DNA of 58,377 nucleotides from a virus (taxonomy: Duplodnaviria; Caudoviricetes): positions 1 through 58,377 of IMG/VR virus record IMGVR_UViG_3300043172_000336, one strand, 5' to 3'. The notes beneath the pieces are model-generated. The model was not told the DNA's origin. It saw nothing but the letters and a program-made list of their open reading frames with translations, and did no database searches. The translations under genes were made by a program, and so were the position numbers. Of the stretch, positions 2,909-49,181 are shown one piece after another. Position 1 is the first letter of the stretch. Each line of letters starts with the position of its first letter.

Positions 2909-3283
2909 ATGAAATACACCCGCCTTTTTTATCCAGAGTACCCCCTGGACTTGCTCGACAATAATAAAGTCCGCATCCTGGACCGGATATTGGGGGGTAA
3001 TCGCCGCAGGAGAAGCCGCGAATACAATTCCGCCTGGGGGATTGCAGAGTCGATCAAATTAGAAGGGTTGCACAACCCACTTACAATAGAGTGGTTTTCG
3101 GTTTATCCCAACGAACCCCCCACCTGGAGTGTCCGCGACGGCAACAATCGGTGGCTCGCACTGACCCACTTTCTGAAGCGCGAGACGGCACCGTGTCTTT
3201 TTTTCGTTCTTGCCGATCGAGAACCTCCGCCGGGCGAGTATAAAAATCTGGGGGGTTGCAACGAGATAAAAGATGTGCGATAA
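2909..3283 (+). CDS. stand-alone ParB/sulfiredoxin-like N-terminal domain protein
   Basis: AESIKLEGLHNPLTI ... VRDGNNRWLAL matches the ParB/Srx pattern SI..GL..P ... DGxxR. Confidence 0.7.
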   Translation: MKYTRLFYPEYPLDLLDNNKVRILDRILGGNRRRRSREYNSAWGIAESIKLEGLHNPLTIEWFSVYPNEPPTWSVRDGNNRWLALTHFLKRETAPCLFFVLADREPPPGEYKNLGGCNEIKDVR

Positions 3284-3290
3284 AGGCACC
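3256..3290 (+). promoter_or_regulatory. putative promoter containing 25-bp direct repeat copy 2 (3266-3290)
   Basis: TTGCAA-17 bp-GATAAA; identical 25-mer to 2879-2903. Confidence 0.6.
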
Positions 3291-3314
3291 ATGTGTTTTA
3301 TAGGAGAACCAGGA

Positions 3315-3605
3315 ATGACCGACGGAATCGTACAAGATGGAGGCCACAGCAGCCAGCCGGTTGGGTATGCACAAGATAAACCCGCGATGGATTGGGGTCA
3401 GGCACTCAACCGATTGCAAAATGGGCTGTCAGTATTCCGCACCGGCTGGAACGGCGCGAATCAGTTCCTCACACTTCAGCGTCCCGACGAAAATTCAAAA
3501 ATGACGCTCCCGTACATTTACATTACGACGGTCCAAGGTGACCTGGTGCCCTGGTTGGCATCGCAGACCGATCAGCTCGCAATGGACTGGTGGGTGCGCC
3601 CATGA
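3315..3605 (+). CDS. DUF2829 / Thoeris anti-defence Tad2-family protein
   Basis: MDWGQAL..L..G..V.R.GWNG ... PYIYI ... VPWLASQTDQLAMDW family signature; AGGAG RBS before ATG 3315. Confidence 0.8.
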   Translation: MTDGIVQDGGHSSQPVGYAQDKPAMDWGQALNRLQNGLSVFRTGWNGANQFLTLQRPDENSKMTLPYIYITTVQGDLVPWLASQTDQLAMDWWVRP

Positions 3606-4562: not shown

Positions 4563-5010
4563 AGACCCGGCATTCAAAGTCGCCGGGCGAGGTAAATGGC
4601 TCGTCAGCGACCCCATGTTGGTTATATGGAAGCTCTGGCGCGTTACCGTACCGGTGGGGTTCATAACCGACTTTGCAAGCATCCCCCGAATTGGGCGATC
4701 AATTATCCAGAAAGATGGACCCCACCGCCTTCCTGCATTGCTCCACGATTATCTCTATAAACACGCCGGTCGAATTCCCGGTCTCTACTTTGAGCCGAAC
4801 GTGGCATTTCCTAAGAACAAGAAACACAGACATATGGTTACGGTTGACTACACCAGGAAGGATGCAGATGAAGCCTTCCGTGATTTTTTGATCCAGTCCG
4901 CAACAAATAAAACCGTCCGAATCATACTCTATCGATTCGTTCGTATGTTCGGGCAAATGTCGTGGCGAAAACACTGCCGCGCCAAAAAACGCGAGGAAAA
5001 GAATGCCTAG
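4552..5010 (+). CDS. DUF1353 family protein
   Basis: VPVGFITDFASIPR ... ALLHDYLY ... RKDADEAF ... YRFVRMFG signature. Confidence 0.85.
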   Translation: MLLKDPAFKVAGRGKWLVSDPMLVIWKLWRVTVPVGFITDFASIPRIGRSIIQKDGPHRLPALLHDYLYKHAGRIPGLYFEPNVAFPKNKKHRHMVTVDYTRKDADEAFRDFLIQSATNKTVRIILYRFVRMFGQMSWRKHCRAKKREEKNA

Positions 5011-5158
5011 ACAATCAATGAACGGCCATCGAATGCATGTGATCCTTACGGGTCCCCAGCACAAGGCCATAACCAGACTTTCGAACAAATCCGGTTTGAC
5101 CACTTCTGAGCTTATGCGACGAGCAGTTGATGCATACCTGGCGTCGGCAAAGAAATGA
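5003..5158 (+). CDS. ribbon-helix-helix (CopG/Arc-like) DNA-binding protein, 51 aa (not in ORF track)
   Basis: MPRQSMNGHRMHVILTGPQHKAITRLSNKSGLTTSELMRRAVDAYLASAKK; GAGG RBS; ATGA overlap with the next gene. Confidence 0.8.
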   Translation: MPRQSMNGHRMHVILTGPQHKAITRLSNKSGLTTSELMRRAVDAYLASAKK

Positions 5159-5367
5159 AAAAATACATCGCCATGTACATGGTTCCGCAGCGCGTAATTA
5201 TCGATGCAGCTGACCTCGCCGATGCGGTTGCCATTGCCAAAGATAGCGGAGAGGCAGGGGATAAGCTCGATGGGTTTTCACCGAAACTTATGACCGTTGA
5301 AAAGCACCCAGACGTAGAGCAATTGTTTATTCCGCCTGATGCGCCTATGCCTCCGATGGCCGCATAA
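5155..5367 (+). CDS. hypothetical protein
   Basis: 70 aa, coupled to the RHH gene by ATGA. Confidence 0.65.
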   Translation: MKKYIAMYMVPQRVIIDAADLADAVAIAKDSGEAGDKLDGFSPKLMTVEKHPDVEQLFIPPDAPMPPMAA

Positions 5368-5389
5368 AAAAGCCCCAGCGAACTGGGGC
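5366..5389 (-). terminator. intrinsic terminator on the strand opposite the flanking genes
   Basis: Minus strand GCCCCAG-TTCG-CTGGGGC-TTTTTT. Confidence 0.8.
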
Positions 5390-5421
5390 GAGGCAGGCGG
5401 GAGACGACGGCCAAAAGTAAT
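5366..5421 (-). ncRNA. predicted ~56-nt small RNA
   Basis: Lies between a minus-strand promoter (5428-5456) and a minus-strand intrinsic terminator (5366-5389); no start codon inside. Confidence 0.55.
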
Positions 5422-5427
5422 GCGATC

Positions 5428-5456
5428 AGTATAGTAAAGGACAGGGCGGAGATCAA
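5428..5456 (-). promoter_or_regulatory. putative sigma70 promoter
   Basis: Minus strand TTGATC-17 bp-TATACT. Confidence 0.65.
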
Positions 5457-6173
5457 ATGACGAATATTGTTTGCTGGAAATGGGACGACCCCGGCTATGT
5501 ACGCGGGGACAAGCTCCTACCAGAATATTACAATATCCTTTACGCGATGCTGGAGCGGAATATTACACTCCCGGTCTGGGACCTTATCGTGCCCACTGAC
5601 GACACCACCGGCCTTAACCCAAATATCGTTGCGGTTCCGCAACCTTCTTCACTGTCTATACGATCGCCGCACGGTAATCGCTTCCCGGCCTGCTACCGCC
5701 GTCTATGGAACTTCTCGCGTGACGCGCAATACCTTTTCGGCAACCGATTCCTCTGTATAGATGTGGATGTCATTATTGTTCGCAACATCGACGCTATGCT
5801 CACTCGCCCTGAAAAATTCGTTGGGTGGACTGACCCGGACTTTAAGTGGGAGAAAATCGCGGGCGGTCTGTACTACATGCAGGCGGGCGCACATCCCGAA
5901 GTCTGGGATGACTTTGATCCGAAAACTTCACCGGCCATTGCAAAGGCCGACGGCAGACACGGTTCCGACCAGGGCTGGATCTCCCACAAACTTTATCCGC
6001 CCGATGCATCGTTCGGACGCAAAGACGGAGCCTGGTACGCGAAATGGATTCCACCGGGGCTTAATATAACGCCAGCGGAAGTGAAGATCGTCAGCACTCC
6101 AGGTTCAGAGAAACCGTGGCACGAGTCGCTCCAAACTAAACACCCTTGGATCAAGCAGCACTGGAGGCTCTGA
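5457..6173 (+). CDS. GT-A-fold glycosyltransferase-like protein (paralog of 10230-10943)
   Basis: IVCWKW, CYRRL, DxD motif CIDVDVII, GSDQGWI, KPW. Confidence 0.8.
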   Translation: MTNIVCWKWDDPGYVRGDKLLPEYYNILYAMLERNITLPVWDLIVPTDDTTGLNPNIVAVPQPSSLSIRSPHGNRFPACYRRLWNFSRDAQYLFGNRFLCIDVDVIIVRNIDAMLTRPEKFVGWTDPDFKWEKIAGGLYYMQAGAHPEVWDDFDPKTSPAIAKADGRHGSDQGWISHKLYPPDASFGRKDGAWYAKWIPPGLNITPAEVKIVSTPGSEKPWHESLQTKHPWIKQHWRL

Positions 6174-6892
6174 TGGACGACGTTACTATTATCGTGCCGT
6201 ACTACCGAAACCCTCTGATGCTGGAGCAGCATGTTCGGTCCTGGGATCTGTTCCCATACAACTTCAAATTTATCGTCGTTGACGACGGCAGCCCTGAACC
6301 AGTAGAGTCGATTCCTAACTCACGGATTAAAGTTCTTCGCATAGAAGAAGACATCCCGTGGAACCGAGCTGGCGCTCGTAACCTTGGCGCACATGTTGCA
6401 GACACCGATTGGATAATCCACATGGATATCGATCATTTTATGCCGCTCAACACAGCCGTCGCCCTGGCCCAATTCACTGCGCTCTCGGACCACTGGTATC
6501 GGTTCGCCAGGTACCGGTTCGGCGCGGCGGATGCTACGCGCAAGAAAGATGATCTCCCTGACGACGTGATGTTTGGCAAGGTCAAGCCCCACATGGACTC
6601 CTACATGGTTGAGCGGAGTATGTATTGGGCGCTCGGTGGGTACGACGAGGACTACTCAGGCTCTCTGGGCGGCGGTGTGCCGTTCGTTAAGGAGCTGGAG
6701 AAGGCAGGCATCCGGCAGGACCTGGACGACCCCTACTACCTGTATGTGTACACTACGGACGCCATATCGGATGCTTCTGACTCATCGCTGAGTCGGGACA
6801 AGGCACGGTATAGCGAGATCCGCAAATCCAAGGCTGATGGAAAAGTACCTAAAAAGGAGCCGTTGCAATTCAAATGGAAGACCGTAGATTAA
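6173..6892 (+). CDS. GT2-like glycosyltransferase with GT7-C-type C-terminal motif
   Basis: IIVPYY, IVVDDGS, GARNLGA, MDIDH, GGYDEDY; start 6173 (GGAGG RBS, TGATG). Confidence 0.85.
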   Translation: MDDVTIIVPYYRNPLMLEQHVRSWDLFPYNFKFIVVDDGSPEPVESIPNSRIKVLRIEEDIPWNRAGARNLGAHVADTDWIIHMDIDHFMPLNTAVALAQFTALSDHWYRFARYRFGAADATRKKDDLPDDVMFGKVKPHMDSYMVERSMYWALGGYDEDYSGSLGGGVPFVKELEKAGIRQDLDDPYYLYVYTTDAISDASDSSLSRDKARYSEIRKSKADGKVPKKEPLQFKWKTVD

Positions 6893-8181
6893 CAACCTAT
6901 CCCAAAGTTTGGGATGAAGCGGAGACACTCAACCGGCTAATGCGGGGCGCTTCGCTTGCTCGCTTTGGTGACGGCGAGATCAAGCTCATGCTCGGCGGCG
7001 ACCAACTGCGTGAGCCAAAGAACAAGAGGCTCCAGGCTGAACTTCTCGCGGCGCTGAATATCAAACTTCCGAATTACATTATTGGTATCCCAACCATGAA
7101 CCCGGAGGGGTTGAAGTATGTCTTCTGGCATAAGTTCGAAGCACGGATTTTGAGTATTTTGAAGAAGCGCCCGGAATACCATTCTGCGTTTATTACTCGT
7201 CCTGACAGCGCCCCCTGGATAATGAATCGCACGTTTGTCGAGTGCTTTCGATCACTGTGGTTTAATAAAAGGGTTACACTCGTTGCAGAAGACAGCAAAG
7301 TAAAAATTCATAAGGTGATCCATGACTATGCTAAAAAACTTACTCTTGTACGCTGTCCGCATGATGAAGCGCACGCCTCCATTGATGTACTCGAAGATCG
7401 AGTTGTGGCTTCTGATCCTGAGATCGCAATTTTATCCGCCGGTCCTACTGCTACTTGTCTTGTTCCTCGTCTTGTTAGGCGTGGCATTCAGGCAATAGAT
7501 GTAGGGAGCATCGGCGGGCTGCTGCTTACTGTGTTCCCATTAAAAGATGTCGAAGTCTATGGTGAGGTCCAGACACTTGATCTTGTATTAGCCGGAGCCA
7601 GCATCGCCCGCTTCGGTGACGGCGAACTTAAGATCCTGCGAGGCCACGACATCGACTGCCAGCCGTGCCACAAACATTTACGCGGTGCGTTCCAGAAGAT
7701 CATCCTTAACCAGAACCCTGAGATCCTTGTCGGTATTCCACGCCCTGATAAGCTCAGCCCGAAGTACGAGAAGTGGATGGGTTTCATGGCCCACTACGAA
7801 GGGTGGCTCAGCCGGAAGCGTCCGTACGGATCTGCGTTTATTACTCGGGCTGATAGTGCCCCCTGGATCGATACCCCGGAGTACTGGGCCAAGCTGAAGC
7901 AGCTTTGGGAAGGGAAGCATGTTTGCCTGGTCTGGGGTGGAGAGACAGCTTCACTGGTCCCCGCTAAAGTGCGGGGTACAAAACAACTCGATAAGATTAA
8001 GTCGCGCCCCAATAATGCGTGGAAAGACAAAGATAATATCCTCAACCAGATTCGAAAGTTGCAGCCTCAACCGGAGGTCGTCCTCCTCTGCCTGGGGCCG
8101 ACAGCAACTGCACTCGTCCCGGACATCGCTGCCATGGGCATCCAGGCAGTTGACCTCGGCCACGTCGGGAGATGGATGTGA
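6874..8181 (+). CDS. tandem GT-D-fold (DUF1792) glycosyltransferase
   Basis: Two internal copies of S[LI]ARFGDGE ... SAFITR.DSAPWI ... GPTAT.LVP ... GIQA[IV]D[VL]G. Confidence 0.85.
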   Translation: MEDRRLTTYPKVWDEAETLNRLMRGASLARFGDGEIKLMLGGDQLREPKNKRLQAELLAALNIKLPNYIIGIPTMNPEGLKYVFWHKFEARILSILKKRPEYHSAFITRPDSAPWIMNRTFVECFRSLWFNKRVTLVAEDSKVKIHKVIHDYAKKLTLVRCPHDEAHASIDVLEDRVVASDPEIAILSAGPTATCLVPRLVRRGIQAIDVGSIGGLLLTVFPLKDVEVYGEVQTLDLVLAGASIARFGDGELKILRGHDIDCQPCHKHLRGAFQKIILNQNPEILVGIPRPDKLSPKYEKWMGFMAHYEGWLSRKRPYGSAFITRADSAPWIDTPEYWAKLKQLWEGKHVCLVWGGETASLVPAKVRGTKQLDKIKSRPNNAWKDKDNILNQIRKLQPQPEVVLLCLGPTATALVPDIAAMGIQAVDLGHVGRWM

Positions 8182-8354
8182 TCGCTGCCTTCAAAGGTGT
8201 GCCCGAAGCTGAGCGCCTGGTCGAGGCCGTTCGGAATTATAAAGGGGGTGATGACCACGAAAGAAGGTTTTTACGCGGCGTGGTTACCTTCTATAAAGCC
8301 CGCCAGCAGCGACCGCAGGTGGTGAGATTTCTGGAGTATGTGCTGTATGGATAA
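8172..8354 (+). CDS. small hypothetical protein inside the glycosyltransferase cluster
   Basis: 60 aa, overlaps both neighbours, GGGAG RBS. Confidence 0.55.
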   Translation: MDVIAAFKGVPEAERLVEAVRNYKGGDDHERRFLRGVVTFYKARQQRPQVVRFLEYVLYG

Positions 8355-9060
8355 TATTCAGCTCATCTATCCGTACTACGACAACCCCGGCATGTTCTAT
8401 GAACAGCAGTCCGTTTGGGCTGAGTGGGACCGCGAGCTTAAAGCTAAAGTCAAGATCATCATGGTCGATGACAGTAGCCCTAACGACGCCGCTGAAAAAT
8501 ATTACTGCTCCGTCCCCGGCCTGGACTTTGAACTATACCGGGTGCATAAAAATATCCCCTGGAATCAGAACGGCGCTCATAATCTCGCCATGCACGTAGC
8601 TGATGACGGCTGGTGTTTGATGACGGACATCGATCATGTGCTGTCGAACGAGAACCTGGCGAGGCTGTTAGCCATCGAGCCAGATGAAGGCATGTACTAC
8701 ACTCTTGGGCGGCGTCAGTTCGGCCATCTACGTGTGCCTTATAAACGGCACCCCAATTCCTGGCTCCTGACGAGGGAGATGTTTTTGACGAGCGGCGGGT
8801 ACGACGAAGACTTCTCTGGATACTACGGCTCCGACAGTGTTTTCAAAGTCGCGCTTTCTCATGTAGGAACGCACATCAAACTCGAACTGCCATATCTTAT
8901 TGTATATAACGAGGACGACATTCCAGATGCAAACACGCGAGAGTTCGAGCGTAAGCATTCGAAGTACTGGAGTTTGAATCACCCTCACCTGTTAGCAAAA
9001 CGCCGCCACTGGCGGATCGCCTTAAACCCCATTCGATTTCCCTGGGAGCGCATACTATGA
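8347..9060 (+). CDS. GT2-like glycosyltransferase with GT7-C-type motif (paralog of 6173-6892)
   Basis: LIYPYY, MVDDSS, IPWNQNGAHNLA, TDIDH, GGYDEDFSGYYGSD. Confidence 0.85.
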   Translation: MDNIQLIYPYYDNPGMFYEQQSVWAEWDRELKAKVKIIMVDDSSPNDAAEKYYCSVPGLDFELYRVHKNIPWNQNGAHNLAMHVADDGWCLMTDIDHVLSNENLARLLAIEPDEGMYYTLGRRQFGHLRVPYKRHPNSWLLTREMFLTSGGYDEDFSGYYGSDSVFKVALSHVGTHIKLELPYLIVYNEDDIPDANTREFERKHSKYWSLNHPHLLAKRRHWRIALNPIRFPWERIL

Positions 9061-9704
9061 AACTCAGTCACGGCTGGTACCACCACGATGTGATGAAAGG
9101 TCTCGGAACGTACATCCGTCGCTCGGGGGTTATTGACGCTGCTATGAAATATCTACCTCCTGAGCGCCGCCGCACAGTCCTCCAGGCAGGAGCGCACCAA
9201 GGAGTCTGGCCTGTCACTCTTGCGAAACTTTTTGAGCATGTGTTCGCGTGGGAGCCAATGCCAAGTAACTGGGAGTGCCTCGTCAAGAACACTGAAAAGA
9301 TCGACAACATTACGATTACGCTGGGCTGCCTCGGTGAGGAAGTAGGTGAAGTAATGCTTGAGGATAAGTCCAATAAAAATACGGGCGCATCTTTTATTAA
9401 CCCCAGGATAGGCACGCAGAGTGCGAAGCAGTTTCGTCTTGACGACTACAATTTCCCTACTCCTGTGGATGCGCTGTTCCTCGATGTTGAAGGGTACGAG
9501 CTTAAGATTTTATTGGGCGGCCACATCCTCATACACAACGACCGACCGGCACTGATTGTTGTCGAGGAAAACGGCTTACAGAAACGTCGATTCAGAATGC
9601 CTGAAAAGGCACTCGGTAAGTACCTGGAAACTTTTGGGTACCAGGCCGTGGAACGCTGGGAAGAAGATGTGATTTATATTCTGGAGGACAATCATTATGA
9701 TTGA
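9057..9704 (+). CDS. FkbM-family SAM-dependent methyltransferase
   Basis: QAGAHQG, VFAWEP, RLDD, LDVEGYE..IL.G. Confidence 0.85.
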   Translation: MKLSHGWYHHDVMKGLGTYIRRSGVIDAAMKYLPPERRRTVLQAGAHQGVWPVTLAKLFEHVFAWEPMPSNWECLVKNTEKIDNITITLGCLGEEVGEVMLEDKSNKNTGASFINPRIGTQSAKQFRLDDYNFPTPVDALFLDVEGYELKILLGGHILIHNDRPALIVVEENGLQKRRFRMPEKALGKYLETFGYQAVERWEEDVIYILEDNHYD

Positions 9705-10233
9705 TGCAGTAGAGGAGGGGTATCTTATTTCCCCGGAACACAAGGCGCGGTACGTCGAGTACTACGCCGACCGTCCCTTCAAAGATCGACCTCATAAATG
9801 GCAGGAGAAGGTCGAAGCGATTGCGAAGAAGATCGAGGCGAAGTCAGTCCTCGATTACGGGTGCGGCGTAACTCAGGCTTTGTCTCGTTGGTCGTCCCTG
9901 CCTGTGACGGACTATGACCCCGTCATTCCCCACCTGGACTGCCCTAACTTTAATCACAAGTTCGATCTGGTTGTCTGCAATCATGTCTTAGAACATGTCG
10001 AACCTGAGCGGCTCCACGATATCCTAGCGCATATAAAGAGCCTGACTGGTAAGGTCGTCTACATCGCGCTCTCCACTAAGCTGTCTACAAAGAAGCTCCC
10101 TGACGGTACTGAGTGGCATCTGCTTGTCCACAATAAAAAATGGTGGAACCAGCAGTTCAAGAAACACTTCCGAGCCTTCCACATCTTCGAGTCAGATGAG
10201 CGGACCTTTGAAATAATATGGGTGAGAAAATGA
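9697..10233 (+). CDS. class I SAM-dependent methyltransferase
   Basis: VLDYGCG, YDP, FDLVVCNHVLEHV. Confidence 0.85.
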   Translation: MIDAVEEGYLISPEHKARYVEYYADRPFKDRPHKWQEKVEAIAKKIEAKSVLDYGCGVTQALSRWSSLPVTDYDPVIPHLDCPNFNHKFDLVVCNHVLEHVEPERLHDILAHIKSLTGKVVYIALSTKLSTKKLPDGTEWHLLVHNKKWWNQQFKKHFRAFHIFESDERTFEIIWVRK

Positions 10234-10943
10234 TTAGAGTAGTATGTTGGTTATGGCCTCCAATGCGAAAATACCGAACGACGTTCACGTATGAACACGT
10301 CAACATCTTTCGCAACATGGTGGAGCGCCACCTGCACATGGAACACGAGGTTGTATGCATTACGAATATGGCAGATCGTATTGATCCTCGTGTCCGTATT
10401 GTTCCGCTGTGGGATGACTATGCTGATGTTGCTTCTCCTCATGGTGGTTTTTCTCCAGCGTGCTACCGAAGACTTAGAGCATTTTCCTCCGAGATGGAGA
10501 ATGTAATTGGCCCGCGTTTTGTTTCGATGGATCTCGATGTCGTCATTGTTGACGATATAACCCCCCTGCTGGACAGGGAAGATGACTTCGTTATTTGGGG
10601 GTCAGTGTTACGGGACACGCCATATAATGGCTCGATGTGGATGATGGACGCAGGCGCTCGCGAAGTGGTCTGGACTGATTTCAATCCGAGTATTTCGCCC
10701 ACACTGACGAGGAAAGCTGGCCTCCACGGATCTGACCAGGCGTGGATGAGCTACCGTCTCGGGGCACTTGAGAAGCGGTGGACACCTAAAGGTGACGGCG
10801 TGTATGCTTTCAGGTCGGATCTAAAACGTCGCCGGTATACGTTACCTGACGACACTAAGATTGTTTTCTTCCAGGGTGCCAACGACCCATGGGATGAATT
10901 TTCACGCAGGGTCGCGCCGTGGATCATGGAGCATTATAAATGA
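10230..10943 (+). CDS. GT-A-fold glycosyltransferase-like protein (paralog of 5457-6173)
   Basis: VVCWLW, CYRRL, MDLDVVI, YNGSM, GSDQAWM, IVFFQG..DPW; ATGA overlaps on both sides. Confidence 0.8.
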   Translation: MIRVVCWLWPPMRKYRTTFTYEHVNIFRNMVERHLHMEHEVVCITNMADRIDPRVRIVPLWDDYADVASPHGGFSPACYRRLRAFSSEMENVIGPRFVSMDLDVVIVDDITPLLDREDDFVIWGSVLRDTPYNGSMWMMDAGAREVVWTDFNPSISPTLTRKAGLHGSDQAWMSYRLGALEKRWTPKGDGVYAFRSDLKRRRYTLPDDTKIVFFQGANDPWDEFSRRVAPWIMEHYK

Positions 10944-12343
10944 GCGCATTGGTTAATTTCCGAACTCCCCCAACTGTTGGGAAGTTCATGCTCGATGACC
11001 ACTTCACTCGTCTCATCATGGGGCCGGTGGGGTCGGGCAAGTCAGCTGGATGCTTCATGGAACTACTGCGCCGGGCGCGACTGCAAGAACCAGACGGAGA
11101 AGGTGTACGCCGAACTCGCTTTGCGATCGTTCGAAATACTTTGCAACAGCTACGACAAACCTGCCTCGCGGATATCCAGCTGTGGCTGTCATCGGTGTGC
11201 AGCTATCGAGTTACTGACGCAACTGTACAAGTTCGCCTGGATCTAAAAGACGGCACCCGAGTCGAGTCTGACTGGATGCTGATCCCGCTCGATACAAAGG
11301 CTGATCAACAGCGCCTCCTGTCTCTCAACTTGACTGGTGCATGGGTGTCAGAGTTTCGTGAGATCGAACCCAGCCTCATCGATGCACTGTCAGGCCGCCT
11401 CGGTCGTTTCCCATCGAAGGCAATCGCTGAGCCTACCTGGTTCGGCATCATCGCTGAGTCAAATCCCCCTGACGAAGACTCAGTTTGGTACACCAAGATG
11501 GAAGTGGACCTACCTCCTAACTGGGTGCTGTTCAAGCAGCCCGGCGGACTAACCGAATTCGCGGAGAACGTCGATAACCTACCGAAGAATTATTACCAGA
11601 ACCTGGCCGACAATAACAACGCTGACTGGGTCGATATCCATGTTCACGCCAAGTACGGCAAGAGCCTCTCTGGTCAAGCTGTCTTTCGGTCCAGCTTCCG
11701 CCCCGGCTTTCATGTGGTCAAGGACCTGGAGCCGATCCCCGGTATGCCAATTATGATTGGGCAGGACTTTGGGCGAACCCCTGCTTCCCTGATGGGTCAG
11801 ATCGACAACCGTGGCCGACTCTGCATTTTTCACGAGTGTACATCTGAAGACATGGGTATCGAGCAGTTCTGCACAGCCAAACTCCGACCAATGATGTTTG
11901 AAAATTACGCCGGTAAAGAATCATTCATGATCGGTGATCCGTCGGGAAAATTCAAAGGTCAGATTACGGAGGAGTCTCCGTTCGATGCACTCAAGCGATT
12001 AGGGTTTAAGATTTACGCAGCGCCGACCAACGATGTGGAGCCACGACTGCGAGCTGTTGAACAACTCTTTCTGCACCAGGTTGATGGAGGACCGATGCTG
12101 CTCATCCACAGCGAGAACTGTCCTCTGTTGATTCAGGCGTTAAAGTTTTGGTATCGCTACCGCCGTAAAACTACAGGTATGTTAGAGGACCGTCCCGAGA
12201 AGACTCACCCTTGGTCTGATCTTGCTGATTGCCTTCAGTACATGTGCCTTGCCGTGAATGGCAATTACATCGGGAATATGATTGCTCGTCAGCGGCCACG
12301 GAAGAACAAGAAGCCTGCGATGACCTCCGCCGCCTGGAACTAA
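10940..12343 (+). CDS. terL: terminase large subunit
   Basis: Walker A GPVGSGKS, RFAIVRNT, ESNPP, nuclease motifs GQDFG, GDPSG, SDLADCLQY. Confidence 0.92.
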   Translation: MSALVNFRTPPTVGKFMLDDHFTRLIMGPVGSGKSAGCFMELLRRARLQEPDGEGVRRTRFAIVRNTLQQLRQTCLADIQLWLSSVCSYRVTDATVQVRLDLKDGTRVESDWMLIPLDTKADQQRLLSLNLTGAWVSEFREIEPSLIDALSGRLGRFPSKAIAEPTWFGIIAESNPPDEDSVWYTKMEVDLPPNWVLFKQPGGLTEFAENVDNLPKNYYQNLADNNNADWVDIHVHAKYGKSLSGQAVFRSSFRPGFHVVKDLEPIPGMPIMIGQDFGRTPASLMGQIDNRGRLCIFHECTSEDMGIEQFCTAKLRPMMFENYAGKESFMIGDPSGKFKGQITEESPFDALKRLGFKIYAAPTNDVEPRLRAVEQLFLHQVDGGPMLLIHSENCPLLIQALKFWYRYRRKTTGMLEDRPEKTHPWSDLADCLQYMCLAVNGNYIGNMIARQRPRKNKKPAMTSAAWN

Positions 12344-12816
12344 GCTGCTTCCGGTAACGCAGTAGCTTCGATTGCCACCGTGCGAATCTCTTTCTCTCCG
12401 GTATCGATGTGAATGTTGATGGTAGCTGCGTTTGCTCCAAGTCCTGCGTTTGCTGCATCCCGCTGGTTACGACCAGCCAGGACCGCCATCTGCTTAATAC
12501 TGTCGATGCGTTGCTGCGATGGTTTCTCGATGTCATGAGCAATCTCGTATAAAATGTGAATGGAATCTTCGAGGATAAGTTCGGCTTTCTTTGTGATTCG
12601 CTTCCCCGAGTTTAGGTCCCCGTGCCAGTCTCTTAGCGCCTCCTTTAGCATGTTGCGGAAGACCCGACTGATTTTGAGGGTTTCCCACTGGTCCTGGGAG
12701 ATCTCGTACTTTTCTCTGATGCCCTCCGCATCGGCAAGCCCAGCGGCTAATTCAGCGCATATGGTCGCGCTCAGATTGTGGATACCCAGGGGCTTAATGG
12801 TTGCTATTTCATTCAT
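12340..12816 (-). CDS. hypothetical protein, candidate small terminase subunit
   Basis: 158 aa with N-terminal HTH-like segment, helical middle and C-terminal strand (ATINIHID); lies between terL and portal. Confidence 0.55.
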   Translation of the reverse strand: MNEIATIKPLGIHNLSATICAELAAGLADAEGIREKYEISQDQWETLKISRVFRNMLKEALRDWHGDLNSGKRITKKAELILEDSIHILYEIAHDIEKPSQQRIDSIKQMAVLAGRNQRDAANAGLGANAATINIHIDTGEKEIRTVAIEATALPEAA

Positions 12817-17282: not shown

Positions 17283-18275
17283 ATGTCCTATCCTGTTGCC
17301 ACTACGGCCTTTAGAGGCCCTACGCAATCACCGGCTTATACCGGTAACTTCATTCCAGAAATCTGGAGCGGCAAGCTCGTAGAGAAATTCTACGCGGCCA
17401 CCGTTCTGGGTGCCATTGCGAACACTGACTACGAAGGTGAGATTCGCAACCAAGGCGATCTGGTCAACATACGAACCCGCCCGACGATCACGATTTCGGA
17501 TTACGAGGTGAACCAGGATTTAACCGTCCAACGTCCCTCCAGTACTCCGACTTCCCTGTTGATCGACAAGGGTAAGTACTTCAACCTCGCACTCGATGAC
17601 GTGATGGAAATCCAGTCCGATATCGATCTCCTGTCCACCTGGGCGGAAGACGCTTCGGAGCAGATGAAAATCGCAGTCGATACCGACGTACTTGGGGCGC
17701 TATCTTCGGTGACCGATACCGACATCAGCGACCTGAACAAGAGCGATAACTCCGGTGCCATATCCGGCGACATCAATCTTGGTGATTACGGTGGTCCGGT
17801 GTATGTCAATGCTGCCTCGCAAGGTACGGGTATCGGTAACGATAACTCGAACGACCGAGCCATCATCGACTTCATCACCGACATGGGTCAAGTACTCGAT
17901 GAGCAGAACATCCCGGAATCGGGACGGTGGCTGATCATACCCGCCTGGCTCGCTGCCAGGATCAAACGATCCGAATTGAAGGATGCTTCGCTTTCCGGCG
18001 ACGGCACCTCGATTCTGCGTAACGGTCGTCTGGGCATGATCGATCGGTTCACTATCTATCTGTCCAACCTCCTGCTCCCGCTGGGTGGTTATGCAGATGA
18101 GTGGCCGCTTCTGTTCGGCACCAATGCCGCTCTGACCTTCGCCAGTCAGTTCACCAAGATGGAAACGATTCGTTCAGAACGATCGTTCTCCAACCTCTTG
18201 CGTGGTCTGCAGATTTACGGCTATAAAGTCGTGAATGGCGTTGCGATGGGTCGCGCTGTTGTTGCTAAGGGCTAA
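17283..18275 (+). CDS. major capsid protein
   Basis: 330 aa; FIPEIWSGKL..KFY, NTDYEGEI..QGD.V.I, LDEQNIPESGRW, RGLQIYGYKVV; followed by a terminator. Confidence 0.9.
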   Translation: MSYPVATTAFRGPTQSPAYTGNFIPEIWSGKLVEKFYAATVLGAIANTDYEGEIRNQGDLVNIRTRPTITISDYEVNQDLTVQRPSSTPTSLLIDKGKYFNLALDDVMEIQSDIDLLSTWAEDASEQMKIAVDTDVLGALSSVTDTDISDLNKSDNSGAISGDINLGDYGGPVYVNAASQGTGIGNDNSNDRAIIDFITDMGQVLDEQNIPESGRWLIIPAWLAARIKRSELKDASLSGDGTSILRNGRLGMIDRFTIYLSNLLLPLGGYADEWPLLFGTNAALTFASQFTKMETIRSERSFSNLLRGLQIYGYKVVNGVAMGRAVVAKG

Positions 18276-47295: not shown

Positions 47296-47494
47296 CGCGA
47301 GTGTTACTCTTGGCGTAGCTTCCCCCGTTCGACAGGGCCTTGACGTGATGGACTTCCTTCCCGTCCCCCTTGTGGACGGTGCCTGCCTTCTCCGCTTCGT
47401 GGCGTGATCTGTTCCTTGCCGCCCGATCCTTCTTCGCTTTTGGCCCAGCGTGGTACTTTTGGTAGTAGGCGTCGGTTGATTCTCGGGTCGGCAT
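47234..47494 (-). CDS. HNH endonuclease-like protein
   Basis: KGDGKEVHHVKALSNGGS....NTRV.....NRS; ATG at 47494. Confidence 0.8.
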   Translation of the reverse strand: MPTRESTDAYYQKYHAGPKAKKDRAARNRSRHEAEKAGTVHKGDGKEVHHVKALSNGGSYAKSNTRVTTRKKNRSYKRSAKNKPID

Positions 47495-47930
47495 CGGACT
47501 CGTCCTGAATGGTGTGCTGGTGTGGGTGCTTGTCTTCAAACAGCTGCTTCAAGTGTATCACGCTGGCCGCCATACCGTCGATGGCTGAGGCCGTGTCCTG
47601 GCTTGGTGGTCGGTCATCAGTGAGCTTACCAGAGTGGTAGGCGTCGAGGATAATACCCACGCAGGCCAGCACACTACCCAGGTGTGGGACATGTGTGACA
47701 GGGTCAGCCCACTCACCGTTCTGGTACTTAGCCAGGTGTCTATAGCAAGCGTCGAGGTAGATCGACACGCGGACACCAGCTGCACGCCAGTTGTATTTCC
47801 CGTACTTGCACGCACCTTCAGTGAACGCGAGCGCAGCGTACGCAGGCAAGACACTGGGGACCAGGTGAAGGGGGAGCTTGTCGGAACCGATCTCGTCCTT
47901 CGGGTTGCTTGACTTTGTGTCGTCGCTCAT
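47304..47930 (-). CDS. dATP/dGTP diphosphohydrolase-domain (DUF5664-like) protein
   Basis: NPKD..G..K.PL.LVP, GA.KYG.YNWR, Y.DA..RHL, E..DP....PHL, L.DDRP. Confidence 0.8.
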   Translation of the reverse strand: MSDDTKSSNPKDEIGSDKLPLHLVPSVLPAYAALAFTEGACKYGKYNWRAAGVRVSIYLDACYRHLAKYQNGEWADPVTHVPHLGSVLACVGIILDAYHSGKLTDDRPPSQDTASAIDGMAASVIHLKQLFEDKHPHQHTIQDESDADPRINRRLLPKVPRWAKSEEGSGGKEQITPRSGEGRHRPQGGREGSPSRQGPVERGKLRQE

Positions 47931-48361
47931 AGCGTGGCGTCCATCACTCTGGCTAACAAGAGTCGTCGGCCAAACTCCTCAAGTTTTCCCCCTTCGTACA
48001 TAAATATAGTGTGGTAACACAGCAGTCCGGTCACCACCTCCAGCCGCGCACCCTTAGATTTCTCCCACCCACTCAGTAGTATGATGCCGTTGCATTTATC
48101 AGCGATCAACTCAACGTCACGCCCAAGTATCTGCCCCCATGACTCGCCCGCTATCTTCCCGGCCTTGTCTAGTCGCCCATCCTCGGACGCAAGCGCAGCC
48201 TCTCGGACTGTAGGTGAATCTGTTTCGACTGGTGAGATGATAGTAAGTCCCACGTCACGTAACTCTTTGGCAGCAGCTTCGAACGCCGGGAAGTTAAACT
48301 GTGGAATGCCAGTCATGGGACCGGCGAGATAGAATGTCTTCTTTAAGTCTGCGAGTTTCAT
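47927..48361 (-). CDS. DUF4406 (nucleoside deoxyribosyltransferase-like) protein
   Basis: YLAGPMTGIPQFNFPAF, L.GWEKSKGARLE. Confidence 0.85.
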   Translation of the reverse strand: MKLADLKKTFYLAGPMTGIPQFNFPAFEAAAKELRDVGLTIISPVETDSPTVREAALASEDGRLDKAGKIAGESWGQILGRDVELIADKCNGIILLSGWEKSKGARLEVVTGLLCYHTIFMYEGGKLEEFGRRLLLARVMDATL

Positions 48362-48609
48362 TAGTATACGTCTCCATTGTTTCCTCGTTTGTGTTCTTCA
48401 TAAGGCGCTACCTTTCGGCGGTAGAATTCCTGCTTCGCACACTCCAACACGCCGATGATTTCGTTGAGGAGTTCATAGCTAACATCTTTGTCCTTCAAGT
48501 AGGCAAGGCAAGTCTTCGTGATGATGTAGTTGAGTTCCCCTGCGTCCATGGCAAAGCTGCTCTTGTTTCGGTCCAGTCTCTGTCGTTGTTTCTTTGTTAC
48601 GTATGGCAT
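48361..48609 (-). CDS. phage hypothetical protein
   Basis: MPY...R..LD ... GELNY.IT ... GVLECAKQEFYRR.VAPYE..K...NGDVY; coupled on both sides. Confidence 0.75.
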   Translation of the reverse strand: MPYVTKKQRQRLDRNKSSFAMDAGELNYIITKTCLAYLKDKDVSYELLNEIIGVLECAKQEFYRRKVAPYEEHKRGNNGDVY

Positions 48610-49181
48610 TAGAATGTGTATCCAAACTTTTCAATTTCCCAGGCACCGTTCACCGCGATCAACTCCTTGTCCTCGGGTTCAACGACCAACTCCCTGACGG
48701 TGTGGTTCTTGAACTCGGACCGCTTCCTATGTCGGAGAGCTATTGGTTTGATGCCGAGGGCCAGTGCAATATCATCGTGCGAGCCACGCAGGTCCTCAAA
48801 CCTAAAGACGTGATCAACTATCTTCCGACCGTCCTCGTCACACAGCATGTTCACTGGGCACTGCTTGGTTACCCACTCGTATCCTTTCTTCGACATGTAC
48901 GGTGTGTACAACCAGGTGTGGAAGTCTTCCCGCTGCCAGTCGAGGTCCGTCTGCATCTTCTCGTGCCTGCTCTCCCGAAAGTAATAGTACAGCGAGATCA
49001 TCCTCTCCCATGGGTTACGGACGAAGCTGAAACTCCACGCATCATTCCACTTGTAGTTCAGCCGCTTACGTACCTGCAATGCGGTGTCGTGACTGAAGTA
49101 ATAGATGTGGTCCCGGTACATCATCTTCACGGTGTTGCCGTTCGTACGAGGGACGTGGATAAAGACTGCGTTGCGTATCAT
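48609..49181 (-). CDS. sulfotransferase family 2-like protein
   Basis: 5'-PSB-like FIHVPRTNGNT, 3'-PB-like FSFVRNPWERMISLY, later RFEDL and E...FGY.F. Confidence 0.8.
   Translation of the reverse strand: MIRNAVFIHVPRTNGNTVKMMYRDHIYYFSHDTALQVRKRLNYKWNDAWSFSFVRNPWERMISLYYYFRESRHEKMQTDLDWQREDFHTWLYTPYMSKKGYEWVTKQCPVNMLCDEDGRKIVDHVFRFEDLRGSHDDIALALGIKPIALRHRKRSEFKNHTVRELVVEPEDKELIAVNGAWEIEKFGYTF

What the first reader, a model, noticed from the sequence alone, without database searches (positions are those of the whole stretch)
5457..10943. Eight-gene glycan-building operon fused to the terminase: candidate virion glycosylation/methylation system
Seen: GT-A-like, GT2-like, tandem GT-D, small ORF, GT2-like, FkbM methyltransferase, class I methyltransferase, GT-A-like, each overlapping the next and running by ATGA into terL. 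That is six glycosyltransferase-like domains plus two methyltransferases, none with an obvious signal peptide or membrane anchor. I see no TET/JBP hydroxylase or hydroxymethylase to give a DNA acceptor base, and no GtrA/GtrB-type serotype-conversion genes (the window is incomplete). Known: some mycobacteriophages glycosylate their virion proteins with phage-encoded glycosyltransferases; DUF1792 extends a protein O-glycan in streptococci; FkbM enzymes are O-methyltransferases common in glycan loci. Inference: a late, cytoplasmic pathway assembling a multi-sugar, methylated glycan on capsid or tail proteins of a podovirus-type phage. Packaging-coupled DNA modification is the main alternative.
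Basis: partly seen in the sequence, partly recalled or inferred. Interest (0 to 1): 0.88.

Follow-up and report, generated by a model that had tools for sequence, protein, structure and literature searches.

The report
Phage glycan-building cassette beside terminase
An uncultivated podophage carries eight tightly coupled sugar-transferase and methyltransferase genes running into its DNA-packaging gene; the enzyme family that anchors them sits inside head-gene modules of many unrelated phages, so the phage probably sugar-coats its own particle, which has not been shown experimentally.

Summary
Window 5457-10943 has eight overlapping + strand genes ending in an ATGA overlap with terL. They give six glycosyltransferase domains in three paralogous pairs (GT8-like g1/g8, GT2-like g2/g5, two GT-D halves of g3). 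There are also an FkbM and a class I methyltransferase and a 60-aa ORF. None has a membrane segment.

- **Composite origin.** The cassette joins two cassette types that occur separately in relatives. The join lies inside the tandem GT-D gene.
- **Ancestral but dispensable.** 25 of 47 terL-related loci carry a cassette, 24 of them with g8. At least 3-4 changes of state are needed on a quick terL tree.
- **g8 is the constant member.** Its family (1208 metagenome homologues, unnamed) lies in prophage head modules of unrelated types in 31 bacterial-genome loci. In one isolated siphovirus it lies between the capsid and head-closure genes.
- **DNA route unsupported.** No thymidylate-synthase homologue or TET/JBP was found here or in five cassette-bearing relatives; no C5-methylase was found here.
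- **Envelope route unsupported.** No flippase-like membrane protein or integrase was seen.

Best reading (0.5): late cytoplasmic glycosylation of a virion protein with a methylated glycan. The acceptor is unknown; this capsid lacks the Ser/Thr tail seen beside g8-like genes elsewhere. This scan has noted similar head-module glycosyltransferases on other DNA.

The parts
5457..6173 (+). g1: GT8-like GT-A glycosyltransferase, paralogue of g8
   Evidence: 32% identity to g8, E 1e-41, with the DxD position aligned. phrog_1962 5.6e-5. No Pfam family.
6173..6892 (+). g2: GT2-like glycosyltransferase. The longest ORF starts at TTG 6146; the ATG at 6173 overlaps the g1 stop as TGATG.
   Evidence: Glyco_tranf_2_2 7.6e-11 and Glycos_transf_2 1.7e-10. 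Junction read. 30% identity to g5.
6874..8181 (+). g3: tandem GT-D (DUF1792) glycosyltransferase with two domains, each carrying the RFGDGE (DxE) motif. It is the join between two cassette types.
   Evidence: GT-D 2e-47 in 2 stretches. C-half matches GalT1/DUF1792 4pfx at 4e-20. The halves are 34% identical. The N-half is nearest the L005/L033 type and the C-half nearest the L004/L006/L037 type. None of the other 119 listed homologues covers more than 64% of it.
8172..8354 (+). g4: 60-aa ORF of unknown function. It belongs to a small-protein family that otherwise lies just upstream of terL or inside cassettes.
   Evidence: No family. blastp to L050 9718-9984 (3.6e-7), L005 (3e-5), L015, L016 and L014.
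8338..9060 (+). g5: GT2-like glycosyltransferase, paralogue of g2
   Evidence: Glyco_tranf_2_2 27.6 bits against a cut-off of 27.3. 30% identity to g2, 2e-35. 49-57% identity to L004, L006, L007, L010, L013, L019 and L037.
9057..9704 (+). g6: FkbM-family methyltransferase
   Evidence: Methyltransf_21 2.9e-9. TIGR01444 6.7e-16. phrog_8156 3.2e-23.
9697..10233 (+). g7: class I SAM methyltransferase
   Evidence: Methyltransf_23 3.8e-12. phrog_24759 4.4e-20. The same domain is fused to GT-D in other contigs.
10218..10943 (+). g8: GT8-like retaining GT-A glycosyltransferase (likely start 10230). It is the constant member of the cassette and always lies next to terL.
   Evidence: Model pLDDT 94.4. 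Foldseek matches LgtC, glycogenin and GlyE at about 1e-8. DLD invariant. Homologues of 50-73% identity lie beside terL in 24 of 47 loci. 1208 homologues.
10940..12343 (+). terL, terminase large subunit, ATGA-coupled to g8
   Evidence: phrog_2 1.9e-22. 46% identity to Rhizobium phage RHph_TM3_14A terL. Junction read.
12340..12816 (-). Conserved 158-aa ORF between terL and portal, a candidate small terminase. terL is inverted relative to it in this sub-lineage.
   Evidence: Clustered in 40 loci. It lies directly upstream of terL and co-directional with it in L036, L041, L042, L044, L045, L046 and L049. No Pfam or NCBIfam family.
17283..18275 (+). Major capsid protein, the proposed but unproven acceptor. 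Tyr270 (18090-18092) tracks cassette presence. There is no Ser/Thr C-terminal tail.
   Evidence: phrog_267 1.2e-50. Alignment column 306 is Tyr in 10 of 11 cassette-bearing and 0 of 5 cassette-less sequences. Residue number. C-terminus read.
48609..49181 (-). Sulfotransferase-like gene in the replication arm, a possible distal member (speculative)
   Evidence: Sulfotransfer_2 5.9e-7. No homologue in 10 relatives. A Sulfotransfer_4 gene lies inside the cassettes of L004, L007 and L037.

Best explanation
This is a late-expressed, soluble glycan-assembly cassette that decorates a component of the phage particle, most likely the capsid protein.

Proposed mechanism:
- The eight genes are translated as one coupled unit together with terL.
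- g8, a GT8-like retaining GT-A enzyme, is the only member kept in every g8-bearing cassette. I propose it recognises the acceptor and adds or anchors the first sugar.
- Its paralogue g1, the two GT2-like enzymes and the two GT-D domains extend the glycan, up to about six transfers.
- The FkbM and class I methyltransferases O-methylate sugars.

Shown here: gene content, coupling, folds and families, paralogy, composite origin, phyletic pattern and the head-module context of the g8 family.

Inferred, not shown: late timing, order of action, donor sugars, methylation of sugars rather than of something else, and above all the acceptor.
For: 1. Context of the anchoring enzyme across unrelated phages.
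- A genome-contig scan with the g8 alignment gave 31 loci in proteobacterial genomes and MAGs. None matches this phage's terL, portal or capsid at E<=1e-5.
- Among 94 + strand ORFs of 300-800 aa from 30 of these loci, Pfam found 20 portal matches (16+2+2), 12 large-terminase matches (10 TerL_ATPase, 2 GpA_nuclease), 12 capsid matches (8+3+1) and 6 prohead-protease matches. No polysaccharide export or polymerase family was among the 25 families shown of 47.
- Gene orders verified protein by protein: TerL-portal-ClpP-capsid-GT in L091; TerL-capsid-GT-portal in L090; portal...capsid-GT in L082.
- 20 of 30 loci have at least one head gene within 8 kb by local phmmer labels.

2. An isolated siphovirus. 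In Tetraselmis viridis virus S20 a cassette of about 10 genes ends in the g8 homologue (44% identity). It holds GT-D, a methyltransferase and genes annotated as sialyltransferase. It lies between the protease/433-aa capsid-like gene and head closure Hc1.

3. Capsid tails. The 10 capsid proteins next to g8-like genes all end in Ser or Thr (10 of 10). That compares with 4 of 13 homologues of the L091 capsid that lack an adjacent g8-like gene, from 401 sampled genomes. One-sided Fisher p=0.0009, not corrected for relatedness.

4. Family composition. GT-D's only solved relatives are GalT1/DUF1792 entries, and GlyE is among the top five fold matches of g8. From recall, both act on the cytoplasmic O-glycan of streptococcal serine-rich adhesins.

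5. Domain fusions tie the methyltransferases to the glycan. GT-D is fused to FkbM, to Methyltransf_23 and to GT2 in other contigs.

6. Relatives' cassettes add sugar-pathway enzymes: a Polysacc_synt_2 dehydratase (4e-86), a UDP-Glc/GDP-Man dehydrogenase, an SDR epimerase, Sulfotransfer_4 and TylF-like methyltransferases.

7. Long residence. GC content is the same as the flanks. The cassette sits on basal branches of the terL tree.

8. Coupling. Overlapping stops and starts run into terL.
Against: - No acceptor signal in this clade. The capsid protein ends without Ser/Thr. The only Ser/Thr-rich stretches found are one loop of the 241-aa protein, not shared by relatives, and one in the tail fibre.
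- In 3 cassette-bearing against 3 cassette-less near-complete genomes, only g1, g2, g5 and g8 are present in all of the first set and none of the second. No dedicated acceptor or carrier gene co-varies.
- The cassette was lost at least 3 times, so it is dispensable.
- g8 and g3 have no tblastn match to any mycobacteriophage among 50,697 phage records. No mycobacteriophage protein is among the top 50 BFVD fold matches.
- The GT8 fold also serves LPS enzymes such as LgtC. From section 8 of the Pyle et al. preprint, it also serves secondary DNA-glycan transferases.
- The tail statistic rests on related sequences and on a control set of one capsid type only.
- Late expression is inferred from position; the promoter and terminator scans were at chance level.
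Confidence: 0.5

Rival explanations
1. Host envelope glycan remodelling. The soluble transferases and methyltransferases act at the inner face of the membrane on host undecaprenyl-linked LPS, EPS or capsule intermediates, or on host flagellin, pilin or S-layer protein. The host's own primer, flippase and ligase are used. The effect would be to block superinfection or stop progeny adsorbing to debris.
For: GT2, GT8 and FkbM enzymes are typical of O-antigen and EPS loci; LgtC and WbbM are among the top fold matches of g8. Peripheral transferases of such pathways need no membrane segment. Relatives carry nucleotide-sugar enzymes. Authors of a cyanophage paper read their 13 glycosyltransferases this way (passages of PMC12801897). 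No phage acceptor was found.
Against: The g8 family lies inside late head modules: between capsid and portal, or between capsid and head closure. Those operons are normally silent in lysogens, so this is an unusual place for conversion genes. No GtrA-, Wzx-, Wzy- or ligase-like polytopic protein appeared near any of the 47 cassette regions in a crude hydropathy screen; 12 of 733 ORFs had 2-3 hydrophobic segments and none had more. No such family and no integrase appeared in the Pfam scans of this record. The phage looks lytic, which limits the payoff of surface conversion.
Confidence: 0.2
2. DNA hypermodification. The transferases build a glycan on a modified base of the phage genome at or before packaging, protecting it from restriction.
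For: The cassette adjoins terL, and in this genome it is translationally coupled to it. In the Pyle et al. preprint, phage DNA-glycan clusters include GT8-like secondary transferases and are sometimes found near terminase and structural genes (abstract and sections 8 and 9). The record is only 93% complete.
Against: No route to a hydroxylated base was found. Thymidylat_synt, Tet_JBP and C5 DNA_methylase: 0 matches at E<=1 in six frames of the record. Thymidylat_synt and Tet_JBP: 0 of 5 cassette-bearing relatives, with completeness 100, 97, 93, 76 and 66%. The same preprint states that about 65% of GT-containing contigs lack such enzymes and are less likely to modify DNA (section 9). Glycans of up to six transfers, methylated and in relatives sulfated, exceed the mono- to trisaccharides reported there (abstract). 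GT-D has no known DNA-acting member (recall).
Confidence: 0.1
3. Another soluble acceptor. The cassette glycosylates a non-virion phage or host protein, for example a take-over target, or a small molecule.
For: No acceptor was identified. GT8 enzymes include protein-modifying members such as glycogenin and the Skp1 galactosyltransferase. Accessory cassettes at module borders are often host-directed.
Against: It does not explain why the family recurs specifically among capsid, portal and terminase genes in three or more unrelated head-module types. It also does not explain why adjacent capsid proteins end in Ser/Thr.
Confidence: 0.1

Closest known systems
Mycobacteriophage virion O-glycosylation (Che8, Corndog, Myrna; Freeman et al. 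2023, Cell Host Microbe). The paper is not held. I know it here only through passages of PMC12363180 and PMC12619734.
   Same: Phage-encoded glycosyltransferases lie beside structural genes. The proposed result is a glycan on capsid or tail proteins made in the cytoplasm during late infection.
   Different: The host range is Proteobacteria-type phages rather than Actinobacteria. The cassette is far larger: six transferase domains and two methyltransferases. There is no sequence match to any mycobacteriophage. There is no C-terminal Ser/Thr tail on this capsid. Nothing has been shown experimentally.
Cytoplasmic O-glycan elongation of streptococcal serine-rich repeat adhesins (GalT1/dGT1 DUF1792, GlyE). 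PDB titles come; the pathway is recalled.
   Same: The same three enzyme kinds (GT-D, GT8, GT2-like) act stepwise and without a membrane on a protein-linked glycan. The GT-D halves keep the DxE motif.
   Different: No GtfA/GtfB-type GT-B primer and no serine-rich repeat acceptor are encoded here. Methyltransferases are added. The context is a viral head or packaging module.
Chlorovirus PBCV-1 capsid glycosylation by virus-encoded multidomain enzymes that combine glycosyltransferase and sugar methyltransferase domains (recalled; not checked by any search).
   Same: The virus encodes its own soluble transferases together with sugar O-methyltransferases. Fusions of GT and methyltransferase domains occur in this family's relatives.
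   Different: That is a eukaryotic virus with N-linked glycans. No sequence or fold comparison with those enzymes was made here.
Phage DNA sugar-hypermodification gene clusters (Pyle et al., bioRxiv 10.1101/2023.12.21.572611; abstract and sections 8 and 9 read).
   Same: Several GT-A transferases lie in a row, some GT8-like. They are found in uncultivated phages, sometimes near terminase genes.
   Different: The defining partners (C5-methylase plus 5mYOX/TET, or a thymidylate-synthase homologue) were not found.

Membership tests
Phage virion glycosylation system (mycobacteriophage type) | Glycosyltransferase gene(s) embedded in or adjoining the structural or packaging genes | tested here: met
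   g8 is ATGA-coupled to terL. Family members lie between capsid and portal or head closure in other phages.
Phage virion glycosylation system (mycobacteriophage type) | Acceptor: Ser/Thr-containing C-terminal ends of capsid or tail-tube subunits | tested here: not met
   The window capsid and other virion ORFs have no Ser/Thr C-terminal tag. The feature is met only in other carriers of g8-like genes: 10 of 10 capsids end in Ser or Thr.
Phage virion glycosylation system (mycobacteriophage type) | Sequence relationship to the characterised transferases | tested here: not met
   tblastn of g8 and g3 against 50,697 phage records gave only Tetraselmis viridis virus S20/SI1 and EBPR siphovirus 3. 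g1, g2 and g5 were not searched this way.
Phage virion glycosylation system (mycobacteriophage type) | Glycan physically present on virion proteins | not testable with these tools
   This needs virions and mass spectrometry.
GT8 (retaining GT-A glycosyltransferases) | GT-A fold closest to GT8 members, with a DxD metal and nucleotide-sugar motif | tested here: met
   Foldseek matches LgtC, glycogenin, GlyE and a GT8 protein (3tzt) at 9e-9 to 4e-8. D105-L-D107 is invariant in 42 of 42 sequences.
GT8 (retaining GT-A glycosyltransferases) | Match to the family profile (PF01501) | tested here: not met
   No Pfam family for g1 or g8 at E<=0.01. The nearest named Atlas cluster carries PF01501 in 21% of members, score 0.94. 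I therefore call it 'GT8-like', not a member.
GT-D (DUF1792, PF08759) | Profile match above the cut-off and a DxE motif | tested here: met
   162.3 bits against a cut-off of 27, in two stretches. 4pfx at 4e-20. GDGE is present in both halves.
GT2 (PF00535/PF10111) | Profile match above the cut-off | tested here: met
   g2 is clearly above the cut-off (42.5 against 27.3). g5 is borderline (27.6 against 27.3; 20.4 against 23.3) but is 30% identical to g2.
FkbM methyltransferases (PF05050/TIGR01444) | Profile match above the cut-off | tested here: met
   g6: 37.7 against 22.7 and 59 against 37.7. The substrate was not tested.
Phage DNA sugar-hypermodification cluster | A source of hydroxylated base: a thymidylate-synthase homologue, or C5-methylase plus TET/JBP dioxygenase | tested here: not met
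   0 matches in the record. Thymidylat_synt and Tet_JBP: 0 of 5 cassette-bearing relatives. The record is 93% complete, so absence is not proven.
Gtr-type or O-antigen serotype-conversion modules | Polytopic membrane partners (GtrA flippase, GtrC; Wzx/Wzy) and a temperate lifestyle | tested here: not met
   No ORF with more than 3 hydrophobic segments near any cassette. No such family and no integrase in Pfam scans of the window. The hydropathy screen is crude.

The most novel reading that the evidence does not exclude
A widespread, unnamed GT8-like enzyme family of phage head modules primes protein glycosylation of the capsid. In this podophage clade it does so on a tyrosine of a capsid loop (Tyr270, glycogenin-like) rather than on a Ser/Thr tail. 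A merged double cassette then builds a methylated, possibly sulfated oligosaccharide of up to six sugars. That would be the first complex, virus-made capsid glycan in phages of Gram-negative bacteria.
Probability: 0.12. Interest if true: 0.85.

Novelty: new variant of a known kind. Interest (0 to 1): 0.6.

Why it matters
Virion glycosylation by phage-encoded enzymes has been shown only for mycobacteriophages, where it shields particles from antibodies (passage of PMC12363180).

If this cassette also coats particles, three things follow:
- Sugar-coated virions would be common in phages of Proteobacteria. The g8 family has 1208 homologues.
- Glycan structures would be diversified by cassette shuffling, as the composite cassette here shows.
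- This would bear on receptor masking, particle stability, immune recognition of therapeutic phages, and enzyme discovery (GT-D, GT8-like and sugar methyltransferases with protein acceptors).

The family occurs in cultured strains and in one isolated virus, so the question can be tested directly.

Tried and rejected
- **Complex prediction.** A complex prediction of g8 with the capsid protein (alignments A1 and A4) returned 'no answer' (score 0.00, mark 0.32). It counts neither for nor against.
- **DNA similarity.** blastn of 5457-12343 against the phage collection found no match.
- **GT-D in viral contigs.** The pattern scan gave 3 pattern hits, none confirmed.
- **Promoters and terminators.** The scan was at chance level: 11 found against 10.1 expected, and 17 against 13.6. 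Timing therefore stays inferred.
- **Sulfotransferase link.** The replication-arm gene has no homologue in 10 relatives and no PDB relative. Its membership in the pathway is only a suggestion.
- **Z-genome idea from the MazZ-like gene.** No PurZ-type Adenylsucc_synt was found.
- **Acceptor search.** No cassette-specific gene lies outside the cassette. No shared Ser/Thr tag was found. Six capsid columns separate cassette-bearing from cassette-less sequences. I report only Tyr270, as a lead, because relatedness confounds it.
- **Tree.** The careful terL tree did not finish in 288 s. The quick tree (SH-aLRT only) is what I cite.
- **GNAT hit.** I could not assign it to an ORF.
- **Literature.** 'DUF1792' + 'phage': 4 papers, none about a phage GT-D, judged from titles and abstract starts. 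'phage' + 'glycosyltransferases' + 'FkbM' + 'terminase': 1 paper, seen as a listing only. 'Tetraselmis viridis virus': 20 papers, 10 listed, none on glycosylation by title. PMC13326640 was seen as abstract and outline only; PMC13229309 as a search listing only. Supplements are closed. The supplementary tables of the Pyle et al. preprint, which list the transferase families, might bear on the DNA rival.

Full report
**What is there.**
- The window is a whole IMG/VR virus record: 58,377 bp, linear, 93% complete by CheckV.
- It has a podophage-type structural module. Evidence: SU10-type portal; capsid, internal virion protein and DNA-transfer protein; Gp77 fibre-tail adaptor.
- Its nearest cultured relative is Rhizobium phage RHph_TM3_14A, at only 46% terL identity. 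That phage has no such cassette.
- From 5457 to 10943 eight + strand ORFs overlap one another, and the last overlaps terL by ATGA.
  - g2 and g5 are GT2-like.
  - g3 is a tandem GT-D.
  - g6 is FkbM.
  - g7 is a class I methyltransferase.
  - g4 has no family.
  - g1 and g8 have no Pfam family. The g8 model (pLDDT 94.4) is a GT-A fold nearest the retaining GT8 enzymes LgtC, glycogenin and GlyE, with an invariant DLD. g1 is its paralogue.
- The six transferase domains form three paralogous pairs.
- None of the eight proteins has a membrane segment.
- GC content matches the flanks.

**How the cassette is built and inherited.**
- A terL search gave 47 related viral loci at 57-81% identity.
- 24 of the 47 carry a g8 homologue (50-73% identity) directly beside terL, with a changing set of the other genes. 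One more has only a GT-D. The other 22 show none, but 5 of those have under 600 nt of flank and are uninformative.
- Relatives' cassettes also hold a Polysacc_synt_2 4,6-dehydratase, a UDP-Glc/GDP-Man dehydrogenase, an SDR epimerase, a Sulfotransfer_4 gene, other methyltransferases and a GT2+GT-D fusion.
- Among 1089 GT-D homologues, 120 were listed. None of the 119 besides the window's own cluster covers more than 64% of g3. They are single GT-D domains or fusions to FkbM, Methyltransf_23 or GT2.
- The N-half of g3 is closest to the GT-D of the L005/L033 type, which also supplies the best g1 and g2 matches. The C-half is closest to the L004/L006/L037 type, which supplies the best g5, g6 and g8 matches. 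The window's cassette is therefore two cassette types merged, with the join inside g3.
- On a quick terL tree, cassette-bearing lineages include the basal ones and the window's whole 9-row clade. 16 of 17 cassette-less rows sit in one derived 24-row clade. At least 3-4 changes of state are needed; 0 of 500 shuffles were as low.
- In 6 of 25 cassette-bearing loci terL lies on the other strand, behind a conserved 158-aa ORF, and the cassette converges on it. Coupling to terL is therefore a feature of this sub-lineage.

**What the anchoring enzyme keeps company with.**
- The g8 family has 1208 homologues at E<=1e-3. The 120 listed carry no Pfam domain. Atlas neighbours are viral clusters.
- A scan of 185,579 species genomes found 31 loci, in Bradyrhizobium, Sphingopyxis, Sphingosinicella, Sphingobium, Bosea, Afipia, Alcaligenaceae and various MAGs. 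None has this phage's terL, portal or capsid.
- Their large + strand ORFs (94 of 133 candidates; the 39 minus-strand ORFs were dropped for a size limit) are dominated by head genes of several unrelated types: 20 portal, 12 large-terminase, 12 capsid and 6 protease matches.
- Verified gene orders include TerL-portal-ClpP-capsid-GT and TerL-capsid-GT-portal.
- Among 50,697 deposited phages only Tetraselmis viridis virus S20/SI1 and EBPR siphovirus 3 match g8. In S20 a cassette of about 10 genes ending in the g8 homologue sits between the capsid-like gene and head closure.
- This recurrent position inside late head operons is the main reason I favour a virion target.

**A lead taken from earlier notes of this scan, and tested.**
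- Earlier reports paired head-module transferases with Ser/Thr ends on capsid and tail proteins.
- Here all 10 capsid proteins next to g8-like genes end in Ser or Thr.
- That compares with 4 of 13 homologues of one of them that have no adjacent g8-like gene, in 401 sampled genomes. p=0.0009, uncorrected for relatedness.
- Of the 120 nearest homologues, 35 end in Ser/Thr.
- The window's own capsid does not carry such a tail.
- The only capsid feature tracking the cassette in this clade is a loop tyrosine, Tyr270: 10 of 11 against 0 of 5. It spans about three apparent losses on the tree. This is a lead, not evidence.

**Rivals.**
- DNA glycosylation needs a hydroxylated base. No thymidylate-synthase homologue, TET/JBP or C5-methylase was found in six frames of this record. 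No thymidylate-synthase homologue or TET/JBP was found in five cassette-bearing relatives.
- The Pyle et al. preprint itself treats transferase contigs without such partners as less likely DNA modifiers (section 9). It also shows GT8-like secondary DNA transferases (section 8), so this rival keeps about 0.1.
- Host-glycan remodelling remains possible because peripheral transferases need no membrane segment. It fits poorly with the position inside head operons. It also fits poorly with the lack of flippase, polymerase, ligase or integrase genes.

**Verdict.**
- I read this as a composite, ancestrally held but dispensable glycan-building cassette whose conserved GT8-like enzyme belongs to a large, undescribed, head-module-associated phage family.
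- Virion protein glycosylation is the best reading (0.5), with the acceptor unidentified.
- The idea is not new in kind: mycobacteriophages are the known case, and this scan has flagged similar modules on other DNA. The new points are the enzyme set (GT-D with GT8-like, GT2-like and two methyltransferases), the merged architecture, the coupling to terL and the breadth of the g8 family.

Noticed in passing
window 12340-12816 (-) and terL 10940-12343: A conserved 158-aa ORF with no family (a small-terminase candidate) lies between terL and portal on the opposite strand. In L036, L041, L042, L044, L045, L046 and L049 terL follows it on the same strand, as in Rhizobium phage RHph_TM3_14A. So terL alone appears inverted in the window's sub-lineage.
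   Followed up: partly
window 18090-18092 (capsid Tyr270): A loop tyrosine of the capsid protein is present in 10 of 11 cassette-bearing and 0 of 5 cassette-less relatives. This is suggestive for a glycogenin-like enzyme but is confounded by relatedness.
   Followed up: partly
window 48609-49181 (-); L004 1576-2157; L048 9122-9793: A sulfotransferase-like gene is ATGA-coupled to the primase. A Sulfotransfer_4 gene lies inside the cassettes of L004, L007 and L037. In 5 'cassette-less' loci the gene just upstream of terL is weakly sulfotransferase-like (Pfam E 0.0034; blastp 0.03-0.16).
   Followed up: partly
window 47304-48361 (-): A dATP/dGTP diphosphohydrolase N-terminal domain gene and a DUF4406 gene lie in the replication arm, with no PurZ-type adenylosuccinate synthetase.
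   Followed up: partly
window 8172-8354 (g4): g4 belongs to a small-ORF family that sits immediately upstream of terL in cassette-less relatives (L050 3.6e-7; L014, L015, L016). A 13-residue stretch of it resembles a segment of the portal N-terminal region in dozens of portals, each at E about 0.5.
   Followed up: no
L082 1305-3254: A Sphingosinicella prophage portal (Phage_portal_3, 1.8e-91) carries a C-terminal Acb1 anti-CBASS domain (3.9e-39) in the same ORF.
   Followed up: no
L102 8001-8679: In Neopusillimonas aromaticivorans the g8-like gene is split into three frame-shifted pieces, so it is a likely pseudogene.
   Followed up: no
window 3273-3605 and 5003-5158: A Tad2-like anti-Thoeris gene (5.2e-20). 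An RHH_1 family hit (1.2e-4) probably belongs to the 51-aa ORF just upstream of the cassette, read by eye.
   Followed up: no
window, one of 27 ORFs scanned: A GNAT acetyltransferase match (1.5e-6) could not be assigned to a particular ORF.
   Followed up: partly
BFVD matches of the g8 model: In uncultured phages g8-like domains are fused to MptE-like/DUF115 domains (685-700 aa, E 6e-14 and 1e-13). From recall, that is the fold of Maf-type flagellin glycosyltransferases.
   Followed up: no
window 5366-5456: A G+C-rich hairpin followed by a T-run reads as a terminator on the minus strand only. On the + strand it is preceded by an A-run, so + strand transcripts can read into g1.
   Followed up: partly
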